Positions 28,328 through 44,563 of a DNA stretch of 64,000 nucleotides are shown piece by piece; the first letter of the stretch is position 1; each line of letters starts with the position of its first letter. The position numbers and the translations under genes are program-made. The stretch comes from Escherichia coli (GTDB lineage Bacteria; Pseudomonadota; Gammaproteobacteria; Enterobacterales; Enterobacteriaceae): assembly GCF_003790525.1 (NCBI RefSeq), contig NZ_CP033635.1; one strand, 5' to 3'. The notes beneath the pieces are model-generated. The model made no database searches. It had not been told where the DNA came from and was given only the letters and a program-made list of their open reading frames with translations.

Positions 28328-30442
28328 TCAATCAGCCACTAATAGCGGACTAGGGATACCAGATGATGAAACAAACAGCCCTTTTACGGCACGGGTTGCA
28401 GCCACATGCAGTAACGCGCGCTCATTAAATAATGCATCACGCTGTTCAACGGGATCATCGGATGCTAATGCTTTTATTTCCGGCACAACGCCTTCGTTAA
28501 TCCCCACCAGGAACACATACTGGAACTCAAGCCCTTTAATACGGTGCATCGTTGCAACTCGCACGCCTGGGCGTGCATCGCTGTCACCGCTATCATTGCC
28601 TAAATTAAATGTCTCAATTCCGGCGTCATTGAGTGCTGATGCGTAGCGGTCGCAAGCATGTTTAGTACGCGCAGTAATGCAGATATCCTGAGAACGAACC
28701 TGATTCGCCAGCAATGCCTGAATTTGCTTGACGAGTGTTGCAGCCTCTTCTTTGAAATCTGCCGCATGCGTAATCATGGGCTTTTCCCCGTGCAGTAATG
28801 ACAAATAATCATTACTGGTATCCGCTTCGCCATCGAGGTTATCAACCTTCACACCAGTTAACAGCCCAACAGCAAATTGACGCGTCTCTTCTGTGGTCCG
28901 ATAGTTAATCTTCAATTTTTTACTGCGACGACCACGGACGTTAATACCACACTGACCAAGAACGACCTTATTGCGATAAATACGCTGATGCCCATCCCCG
29001 ACAATAAACAGATCGTTGGGCGACTCGGGAACCAGGCTGCGAATAAGAGTAAATGCCGGGGCACCGATATCTTGAGCTTCATCGACGACAATACTGCTAT
29101 AAGGTAGTTGGACCTGCTTTTCTTTAAACAGAACAATAGCCTCATGCATGGCATCGCCCATTTCGCGCAGTTTGGCACGCGCCATTTGTGCTCTGAATTC
29201 TTCGAAAACTGGCCAGATTTTCGCCCGTTGAATACGGGATAACGCTGTACCACGTCCAACCCGGCTGACTTTGAGGTATTCCTCCCGGGTGTAAACCGCA
29301 TTTGGCTGGACAACGCGTTGCCACTCTTCAGCATAGAAATTGTCAGGTAGCCCCAGTTCGGCAGGTGCCTGCTGCAAGGCATAGTTCCAGCATTTACGTC
29401 GCCCTTCATCGCTGTCGTATACCACGCGGAAATCATAACCGTGGCGTTTTAGTTGGTCGCTCATCCAGGCATCAATGTTAACGACGTCAATACGCGCCAT
29501 CTCTTCTCGCGTACACAACCGCTGGAGATTAGCGCGAATATCTGCCGCCAGGTTACGCGTAAAGGTCGTGAAAAGTACCTTCTTACCGGGTTTATCTACC
29601 AGACGCTGAGATAACCACCGCGCACGGTGCATTGCAACAACCGTTTTCCCTGTACCTGCACCGCCCAGTACTCGTACCGGACCATTAGCGGGCGACTCCA
29701 CCAGTTTTCGCTGGCTCGGATGCAGAAATACACGCCATTTTTCTAAAGGCGCATTAAGCATCTGCAACAGCTCCTGTTCATTTTCAACGACATAGAAGCG
29801 ACGTTTACTTCGTTCAATCGCCTCCATAAAGTCGTTGGTATCAACAGGCTCATCACGATGATCGTTAAACTCTTCCAGCACTTCCTGGTAATCCAGCCCT
29901 TCTGCCAGCCAATGCAGGGGTTCCCAGGCTTCTGCTGGCATTATGCTTTCAAGTTGATTAAGCCCGGCTTCATCGGTAAGCGCCATCACCTGATCAATAA
30001 AGACAGGCGGCACACCCAGGGCCAGAATCTGTTCCGCGCTGTAAGCTGCGAAGAGTTTCGGTTTATCAACCACTGTTTCCGCTGCCGGTTTGATATAGCT
30101 AATATCAATAACCTGAATTGCGCCGGTAACCGGGTGAATTGAACAATCATGCCGCCGCGCCCAGTCGTATGCTTCGTCGTGTTTATCCACCCACATCAGC
30201 ATATACAGGGCACCCTGTTCAGGTTTCAGAACAATGCCGCGATAAGTTTGATCGATTCGCACCGAATGGACATTTTTACTGCGCGCATCGTGGATCTTTT
30301 CATAGTTAAGTCCATTACTGGTCGGGTCCTGACGGAATTTGGAGATGAATTCCTGCACCTTTTTTTGCTGTGCTTTTGGGATCCGCGCGAATGCGCCCAG
30401 AAAACCATCAGAAAGTGCCACCTTGGGCGTTTGCACCGTCAT
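28328..30442 (-). CDS. UvrD/Rep-like superfamily 1 DNA helicase (704 aa) with a roughly 230-aa N-terminal extension; last gene of the DISARM-like operon
   Basis: Walker A VLGGAGTGKT, Walker B VVDEAQD, motif VI-like VATMHRIKGLEFQYVFLVG; start overlaps the upstream stop (ATGA). Confidence 0.8.
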   Translation of the reverse strand: MTVQTPKVALSDGFLGAFARIPKAQQKKVQEFISKFRQDPTSNGLNYEKIHDARSKNVHSVRIDQTYRGIVLKPEQGALYMLMWVDKHDEAYDWARRHDCSIHPVTGAIQVIDISYIKPAAETVVDKPKLFAAYSAEQILALGVPPVFIDQVMALTDEAGLNQLESIMPAEAWEPLHWLAEGLDYQEVLEEFNDHRDEPVDTNDFMEAIERSKRRFYVVENEQELLQMLNAPLEKWRVFLHPSQRKLVESPANGPVRVLGGAGTGKTVVAMHRARWLSQRLVDKPGKKVLFTTFTRNLAADIRANLQRLCTREEMARIDVVNIDAWMSDQLKRHGYDFRVVYDSDEGRRKCWNYALQQAPAELGLPDNFYAEEWQRVVQPNAVYTREEYLKVSRVGRGTALSRIQRAKIWPVFEEFRAQMARAKLREMGDAMHEAIVLFKEKQVQLPYSSIVVDEAQDIGAPAFTLIRSLVPESPNDLFIVGDGHQRIYRNKVVLGQCGINVRGRRSKKLKINYRTTEETRQFAVGLLTGVKVDNLDGEADTSNDYLSLLHGEKPMITHAADFKEEAATLVKQIQALLANQVRSQDICITARTKHACDRYASALNDAGIETFNLGNDSGDSDARPGVRVATMHRIKGLEFQYVFLVGINEGVVPEIKALASDDPVEQRDALFNERALLHVAATRAVKGLFVSSSGIPSPLLVAD

Positions 30443-44563: not shown

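What the first reader, a model, noticed from the sequence alone, without database searches (positions are those of the whole stretch)
28328..44563. Non-canonical DISARM-like operon: SNF2 helicase, giant amino-methyltransferase, fused helicase/DUF1998 and UvrD-like helicase
Four minus-strand genes are joined by 2-nt, 1-nt and 4-nt junctions, so they are almost certainly co-translated. The SNF2 plus amino-MTase plus helicase/DUF1998 content recalls class 1 DISARM (DrmD, DrmMI, DrmA, DrmB). Three things differ: the helicase and DUF1998 modules are fused in one 2113-aa protein, as in Druantia DruE; no PLD-type drmC is present; and a UvrD-like SF1 helicase with a unique N-terminal domain is coupled at the 3' end. 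I do not recognise this exact architecture as a described system.
Basis: partly seen in the sequence, partly recalled or inferred. Interest (0 to 1): 0.9.

Follow-up and report, generated by a model that had tools for sequence, protein, structure and literature searches.

The report
Known ARMADA type II phage-defence operon
The four tightly packed genes are a real anti-phage operon, but it was named and tested in 2025 as ARMADA type II (armABCD), so it is a known system whose molecular mechanism is still open.

Summary
Four minus-strand ORFs of 952, 1640, 2113 and 704 aa sit at 28328-44563, joined by a 2-nt gap, a 1-nt overlap and a 4-nt overlap. The domain calls (SNF2, N6-adenine methyltransferase, DEAD helicase with DUF1998/MZB, UvrD) all hold.

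The novelty claim does not hold. The locus is ARMADA type II, armABCD (Bell et al., bioRxiv 2025, PMC12458937). That system was shown to defend E. coli NCTC 12900, ATCC 8739 and EDL933 against phages. The window is 100% identical here to E. coli SMS-3-5, which the EHEC paper names as a carrier.

Against the paper's reference proteins, ArmA is 100% identical, ArmC 99.5% and ArmD 99.6%. ArmB is 83.9% identical because a block after the NPPW motif (aa ~985-1460) is a different allele.

As published, Druantia III and Zorya II lie directly upstream.

One small addition: the ArmB variable block holds two hypervariable modules that assort independently between strains.

The parts
41705..44563 (-). 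armA: SNF2/RapA/BrxHII-like helicase, 952 aa. Walker A is GLGK136T and Walker B is D236EAH.
   Evidence: 100% identical to the reference ArmA, WP_001041505.1.
36780..41702 (-). armB: 1640-aa gamma-class N6-adenine DNA methyltransferase (DrmMI/PglX-like). Motif I is around G605 and the NPPW motif is at 971-974.
   Evidence: 83.9% identical to the reference ArmB, WP_001229642.1.
37323..38750 (-). armB allelic variable block (aa ~985-1460), inferred to be the target-recognition region. Its hypervariable module B lies at about 38103-38405 (aa 1100-1200) and module D at about 37368-37670 (aa 1345-1445).
30439..36780 (-). armC: 2113-aa YprA/DruE-type DExH helicase. It has GSGK110T, D234ELH, QRIGRAGR at 1058, four CxxC motifs at 499-603 (Zn module), an MZB/DUF1998 domain and C-terminal nuclease-like domains.
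   Evidence: 99.5% identical to the reference ArmC, WP_000937974.1.
31867..32136 (-). MZB (DUF1998) zinc-binding domain of ArmC, aa 1549-1638.
   Evidence: PF09369, E 9.4e-13; cysteines at 1623, 1625, 1634 and 1637.
31366..31728 (-). Vsr-like PD-(D/E)xK nuclease domain of ArmC, aa ~1685-1805. D1748, D1768, H1773, D1780 and R1784 are invariant.
28328..30442 (-). [quoted passage not shown]
   Evidence: 99.6% identical to the reference ArmD, WP_000218177.1.
30098..30442 (-). RelE/YoeB/YafQ-fold domain of ArmD, aa 1-115. Y47, E48, R62, R68 and H88 are invariant.
44564..44786 (-). 223-bp druE-armA intergenic region, with a hairpin after the druE stop and a weak sigma-70-like site. It is the presumed native arm promoter region.
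   Evidence: consensus matches only, not above the shuffled expectation. The published clone used native promoters.
44787..54460 (-). Context: Druantia type III. druH is at 51101-54460 and druE at 44787-51101, co-directional with arm.
   Evidence: DruH3 2541 bits, DruE3 2180 bits.
54615..58145 (+). Context: Zorya type II zorA, zorB and zorE, divergent from druH.

Best explanation
This is the ARMADA type II anti-phage system, armA-armB-armC-armD. [quoted passage not shown]

Shown by others on near-identical proteins: the operon alone protects against many dsDNA phages without killing or arresting the cell. In a plasmid clone, deleting any of the four genes abolishes protection. In native EDL933, loss of armD is less severe. 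Protection also needs the ATPase motifs of ArmA, ArmC and ArmD and the NPPW motif of ArmB.

Inferred working model:
1. ArmB methylates adenines in a strain-specific DNA sequence. That sequence is read by the hypervariable block after NPPW, marking host DNA (p about 0.6).
2. ArmB is also needed to recognise unmarked invading DNA, as PglX is in BREX. Losing it abolishes defence rather than causing self-attack.
3. ArmA (SNF2 translocase) and ArmC (YprA/DruE-type helicase that probably engages ssDNA-containing DNA) then process the invader. ArmC's Vsr-like nuclease is the likely DNA-cutting effector, in place of DISARM's PLD protein DrmC (p about 0.6).
4. ArmD, a GajB-like UvrD helicase with a RelE-fold domain, is an auxiliary motor or sensor. 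Whether its RelE-like domain cleaves RNA is open (p about 0.25).
For: Identity:
- Window 28000-45000 is 100% identical to E. coli SMS-3-5. [quoted passage not shown]
- O157:H7 EC4115 carries exactly the accessions used as ARMADA II representatives in Bell et al. Table S2.
- The window proteins are 100% (ArmA), 83.9% (ArmB), 99.5% (ArmC) and 99.6% (ArmD) identical to those references.
- All eight residues mutated in the paper sit at the same numbers in the expected motifs.
- Gene order, the GajB-like helicase with a RelE-like N-terminus and the C-terminal Vsr-like nuclease match the published definition. I reproduced them independently.
- ArmC is far closer to DruE than to DrmA: 348 against 49.5 bits in PADLOC. 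Its best solved relative is a 2108-aa DEAD/DEAH box helicase chain that I take to be DruE.

Function: phage protection, the need for each gene and the non-abortive phenotype are published.

Model:
- ΔarmB strains grow like the wild type and lose defence.
- Hypermodified Tevenvirinae escape.
- ArmB variation is confined to aa ~985-1460. Two modules there assort independently, while the rest of the protein is 98-100% conserved. This is the pattern of specificity domains in restriction-modification and BREX systems.
Against: - No methylome, methylation motif or nuclease assay exists for ARMADA in the papers I could read. Bell et al. never use a word starting with 'methylat', and the EHEC paper never uses 'methylation'.
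- ArmB G605A and ArmD D454N only partly lose function.
- ΔarmD is less severe in the native host.
- The homologous PLD nuclease domains of DruE were reported dispensable for Druantia III defence, so a fused nuclease need not be the effector.
- The RelE-like call rests on fold only. Sequence searches against solved structures found nothing, and the alignment to YoeB is not significant.
Confidence: 0.9

Rival explanations
1. A non-canonical class 1 DISARM system. DrmD, DrmMI and a fused DrmA-DrmB act as in DISARM, and the UvrD-like gene is an add-on.
For: The best PADLOC and NCBIfam hit of ArmA is DrmD (1.4e-99; NF038317, 350 bits). ArmB hits DrmMI at 1.1e-56. According to the EHEC paper, DefenseFinder flags the locus as DISARM I-related.
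Against: The ArmA score of 350 bits is below the curated DrmD cut-off of 610. ArmC scores 348 bits against DruE3 but only 49.5 against DrmA. The helicase and DUF1998 parts are not separate genes, and there is no PLD DrmC. In the published YprA phylogeny ARMADA is a separate clade next to Druantia.
Confidence: 0.04
2. A type IIG restriction-modification enzyme (ArmB cuts and methylates) that merely happens to sit among helicase genes.
For: ArmB matches the PADLOC model REase_MTase_IIG PDLC03614 over its full length (934 bits).
Against: Pfam finds no nuclease domain in ArmB, and ArmB has no relative detectable by sequence among solved structures. The four genes are translationally coupled. Deleting any one of the three helicase genes abolishes defence in the plasmid-borne clone. 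The PADLOC model probably derives from REBASE predictions for this same family (my inference).
Confidence: 0.03
3. armABCD and druHE form a single six-gene system rather than two systems.
For: The genes are co-directional and only 223 bp apart. The two systems co-occur in hundreds of genomes and synergise. Both encode YprA-type helicases.
Against: ARMADA II cloned alone protects, and Druantia III cloned alone protects. Single-system deletions keep partial defence. 17 genomes carry ARMADA II alone. A hairpin follows the druE stop.
Confidence: 0.05

Closest known systems
ARMADA type II (armABCD; Bell et al. 2025, PMC12458937; EHEC OI-172 study, bioRxiv 10.1101/2025.09.22.677730)
   Same: [quoted passage not shown] ArmA is identical to the tested or reference proteins, and ArmC and ArmD are at least 99.5% identical.
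   Different: Only the ArmB allele differs: aa ~985-1460 are 30-64% identical to the O157:H7 reference in 50-aa windows. Just 17 of 525 E. coli genomes with armB share this allele over its full length.
DISARM class 1 (drmD, drmMI, drmA, drmB, drmC)
   Same: SNF2 helicase followed by an N6-adenine methyltransferase, then a YprA-family helicase with DUF1998. Both are presumed methylation-linked, non-abortive DNA defences.
   Different: The helicase and DUF1998 parts are fused. The YprA homologue belongs to the Druantia-like branch. A C-terminal Vsr-like nuclease replaces the separate PLD DrmC. There is an extra UvrD/GajB-like gene.
Druantia type III DruE (encoded 223 bp upstream in the same window)
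   Same: A roughly 2100-aa YprA-type helicase with a Zn module, MZB/DUF1998 and C-terminal nuclease-like domains. It is the best PADLOC and best solved-structure relative of ArmC.
   Different: DruE carries PLD-like domains and works with DruH. ArmC carries Vsr-like domains and works with an SNF2 helicase, a methyltransferase and a UvrD-like helicase.
BREX (PglX methyltransferase, BrxHII helicase)
   Same: A large gamma-class adenine methyltransferase that is needed for restriction as well as for modification. A BrxHII/RapA-like SNF2 partner is present (ArmA hits BrxHII at 9.4e-60). The specificity region is variable.
   Different: There are no BrxA, BrxB, BrxC, PglZ or BrxL proteins. ArmB hits the PglX models only weakly (E 4e-7 to 8.5e-6).
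Gabija GajB
   Same: [quoted passage not shown]
   Different: There is no GajA partner. ArmD has a RelE-fold N-terminal domain plus a helical linker (aa 1-240).
ARMADA type I
   Same: Shares the YprA-like ArmC with a Vsr-like nuclease, the BrxHII-like helicase and the PglX-like methyltransferase.
   Different: Type I usually places the YprA gene first and lacks the RelE-GajB gene.

Membership tests
ARMADA type II | Strict gene order: BrxHII/RapA-like SNF2 helicase, PglX-like methyltransferase, YprA-like helicase, GajB-like helicase. | tested here: met
   ORF order and junctions; family hits; definition.
ARMADA type II | The YprA homologue belongs to the ARMADA/Druantia branch. Between RecA1 and RecA2 it has an insert that the paper describes as a BrxA-like domain plus a CxxC zinc module. 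It also carries MZB/DUF1998. | tested here: met
   DruE3 348 bits against DrmA 49.5 bits. Best solved relatives are a DruE-like chain and then YprA. About 700 aa separate DEAD (84-278) from Helicase_C (993-1066). CxxC motifs at 499, 556, 570 and 600. MZB at 1549-1638. I did not test the BrxA-like fold itself.
ARMADA type II | A C-terminal Vsr-type (PD-(D/E)xK) nuclease domain on ArmC. | tested here: met
ARMADA type II | The GajB-like helicase is fused at its N-terminus to a RelE-like domain. | tested here: met
ARMADA type II | Sequence identity to experimentally tested or reference ArmA-D proteins. | tested here: met
   100%, 83.9%, 99.5% and 99.6% against the accessions of Table S2. The mutated residues are conserved in place.
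ARMADA type II | Confers phage resistance. | not testable with these tools
   Shown for the O157:H7 and ATCC 8739 orthologues. It has not been shown for this ArmB allele.
DISARM class 1 | The DrmA helicase and the DrmB DUF1998 protein are encoded as separate genes of the DISARM YprA clade. | tested here: not met
   There is a single 2113-aa ORF. DrmA models score 49.5 bits or less, against 348 bits for DruE3.
DISARM class 1 | A PLD-family nuclease, DrmC. | tested here: not met
   No PLD hit in any operon protein. The downstream flank has no such gene.
DISARM class 1 | A DrmD SNF2 helicase scoring at the curated equivalog level. | tested here: not met
   NF038317 scores 349.7 bits against a cut-off of 610.
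Druantia type III | A DruE with PLD-like C-terminal domains, paired with DruH. | tested here: not met
   ArmC matches DruE3 only in part (two matched stretches, 348 bits, against 2180 bits for the true DruE next door). ArmC has no PLD hit. DruH belongs to the upstream druHE pair.
Type IIG restriction-modification enzyme | A nuclease domain and a methyltransferase in one polypeptide that acts alone. | tested here: inconclusive
   The full-length PADLOC IIG model hits at 934 bits. However, Pfam finds no nuclease domain in aa 1-540, and the published genetics show that armB is not sufficient. I did not model the fold of the ArmB N-terminus.

The most novel reading that the evidence does not exclude
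ArmB reads a bipartite DNA target through two independently exchangeable hypervariable modules (aa ~1100-1200 and ~1345-1445). On this reading, E. coli lineages reshuffle these modules, as type I systems reshuffle HsdS target-recognition domains, to change ARMADA's self-mark and phage range. The rare allele in this window (17 of 525 genomes) would then specify a methylation motif different from that of O157:H7. Separately, ArmD's conserved YoeB-like residues (E48, R62, R68, H88) might make it an active RNase, which would give ARMADA II an RNA-directed arm.
Probability: 0.35. Interest if true: 0.5.

Novelty: already known. Interest (0 to 1): 0.25.

Why it matters
ARMADA II is reported as the dominant phage-resistance determinant of EHEC O157:H7, and I find it in about 10% of complete E. 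coli genomes (536 of 5426). Recognising it therefore matters for phage-therapy host-range prediction.

The locus itself adds nothing new to the catalogue. What remains open is the mechanism: the methylation motif, the self/non-self logic and the true effector nuclease.

The module structure of armB mapped here gives a concrete handle. Natural alleles differ only in two short blocks, so they are ready-made specificity-swap experiments.

Tried and rejected
- ArmB against solved structures by sequence: no hit.
- ArmD N-domain against solved structures, as a single sequence and as a profile: no RelE hit. Only the fold comparison shows the similarity.
The register puts E48, R62 and R68 opposite YoeB E46, R59 and R65, but the alignment is not significant (E 0.11). 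I treat it as a hint only.
- Word-indexed homologue search for the ArmC C-terminus: only 9 hits. The exhaustive representative search gave 933.
- Promoter and terminator scan: counts were not above shuffled controls, so I make no claim about regulation.
- tRNA and Rfam scans of the window: nothing.
- A database cluster that lumps 2104-aa proteins with ArmA looked like a possible fusion. Those proteins are DruE (99% identical) with no similarity to ArmA, so it is a clustering artefact.
- I first assumed the window was SMS-3-5 itself. It diverges from that record after position 63299, so it comes from a near-identical strain.

Full report
**Observation.**
The four ORFs exist exactly as described: 41705-44563 (952 aa), 36780-41702 (1640 aa), 30439-36780 (2113 aa) and 28328-30442 (704 aa), all on the minus strand. 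Reading the junctions gives a 2-nt spacer, a 1-nt TGATG overlap and a 4-nt ATGA overlap. Shine-Dalgarno-like runs precede each internal start. This is a translationally coupled operon.

**Domains.**
- ArmA has SNF2-rel_dom and Helicase_C.
- ArmC has DEAD (84-278), Helicase_C (993-1066) and MZB, the former DUF1998, at 1549-1638.
- ArmD has a UvrD core at 241-693.
- ArmB gives only weak Pfam methyltransferase hits. It gives strong PADLOC hits to DrmMI (1.1e-56) and to a full-length 'type IIG' model (934 bits). It carries motif I and NPPW.
- No curated NCBIfam model reaches its cut-off for any of the four proteins. That explains the generic RefSeq names.

**Context.**
The two ORFs directly upstream on the same strand are DruH and DruE of Druantia type III (2541 and 2180 bits). 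Beyond them, divergently oriented, lie ZorA, ZorB and ZorE of Zorya type II. Window 28000-45000 is 100% identical to E. coli SMS-3-5. 536 of 5426 complete E. coli genomes hold the locus. The region lies between the nan/fim genes and further defence genes.

**Identification.**
A full-text search led to two papers:
- Bell et al. [quoted passage not shown] The EHEC paper names SMS-3-5 as a carrier.

The paper's Table S2 representatives are WP_001041505.1, WP_001229642.1, WP_000937974.1 and WP_000218177.1. These are the four proteins of O157:H7 EC4115. Against them, the window proteins are 100%, 83.9%, 99.5% and 99.6% identical.

The eight residues mutated in the paper are ArmA K136 and D236, ArmB G605 and N971, ArmC K110 and D234, and ArmD K266 and D454. 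All sit at the same positions in the expected motifs. Membership is therefore established by identity as well as by architecture.

**Independent tests of the defining domains.**

**ArmB variation.**
Only 17 of 525 genomes with armB match this allele over its full length. The others match about 71% of the gene, in two pieces. The divergent block is aa ~985-1460, starting just after NPPW.

Among nine sampled alleles, the rest of the protein is 98-100% identical, while the block is 45-83% identical. Within the block, two modules (~1100-1200 and ~1345-1445) are hypervariable and assort independently. L006 and L007 share module D (99%) but not module B (40%). L008 and L009 share module B (99%) but not module D (32%).

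The EHEC paper notes that armB is the variable gene. Neither paper localises the variation or discusses target recognition or methylation. I read the block as the target-recognition region, with two exchangeable parts. That is an inference from the position after motif IV, as in gamma-class methyltransferases, and from the analogy with HsdS.

**Mechanism.**
Established by others:
- The defence is broad and non-abortive.
- Deleting any of the four genes abolishes protection in the plasmid clone.
- The catalytic motifs are required.
- ARMADA II synergises with Druantia III.
- Hypermodified T-even phages escape.
- ΔarmB strains grow normally.

No methylation motif, complex structure or nuclease activity has been reported. 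A 2026 review still lists ARMADA among systems that restrict by unknown mechanisms. The 2026 Druantia papers add only that DruE is a 3'-to-5' helicase that binds ssDNA and whose PLD domains are dispensable for defence.

My best model is a BREX/DISARM-like logic:
- ArmB marks self DNA and is also needed to recognise unmarked DNA.
- ArmA and ArmC translocate on and unwind the invader.
- The ArmC Vsr-like domain is the probable cutter.
- ArmD is auxiliary.

The individual steps carry probabilities of about 0.25 to 0.6, as stated under the best explanation.

**Verdict.**
The DISARM-like reading is essentially the published one. The system is already known, and this strain is named as a carrier. 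Interest is low for discovery purposes. There is a modest lead in the modular armB alleles.

Noticed in passing
window 44787-58145: A complete Druantia type III system (druH 51101-54460, druE 44787-51101) and Zorya type II system (zorA, zorB, zorE, 54615-58145) lie directly upstream of the operon. The three together form the published tripartite defence island.
   Followed up: partly
window 37323-38750 (armB aa ~985-1460): The allelic block of armB has two hypervariable modules (aa ~1100-1200 and ~1345-1445) that assort independently among nine E. coli alleles. This suggests two exchangeable specificity parts. I did not find this described in either ARMADA paper.
   Followed up: yes
window 30442-30993 (ArmC aa 2022-2077) and 57042-58145 (ZorE aa 279-335): A 57-aa stretch near the C-terminus of ArmC is 40% identical (E 6e-9) to the C-terminal region of the ZorE encoded in the same island. 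PADLOC and NCBIfam ZorE models also hit this part of ArmC. It looks like a shared small Vsr-like domain in the effectors of two neighbouring systems.
   Followed up: partly
window 24009-24535 and 58325-58852: A 529-bp direct repeat (94.5% identical) brackets the ARMADA-Druantia-Zorya block. One copy is the 5' part of nanM. The other is a Kelch/nanM pseudogene fragment. This suggests insertion or rearrangement at the nan locus and a route for loss by homologous recombination.
   Followed up: no
window 63300-64000: The window matches SMS-3-5 at 99.998% from 15429 to 63299 and then diverges. An IS256-family transposase ORF (63334-63996, minus strand, E 9e-75) sits where SMS-3-5 has a 1478-aa hypothetical gene next to a JetD-domain gene. 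The window therefore comes from a near-identical strain with an IS insertion.
   Followed up: partly
window 58972-62914: More candidate defence genes lie beyond Zorya: an HNH endonuclease (58972-59613), a phosphorothioated-DNA-binding restriction endonuclease (59693-60622, NF045808, 437 bits), a protein with a weak NucS-like hit (60734-61732) and a JetD-domain protein (61859-62914).
   Followed up: no
protein database cluster of ArmA: The 90% identity cluster that contains ArmA has a 2104-aa representative. That protein is DruE and has no similarity to ArmA. This is a clustering artefact, not a fusion protein.
   Followed up: yes
window 36780-41702 (armB aa 605-971): About 365 aa separate methyltransferase motif I from NPPW. 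The Pfam Eco57I model is split across 652-738 and 938-977. This points to a large insertion inside the catalytic domain, of unknown role.
   Followed up: no
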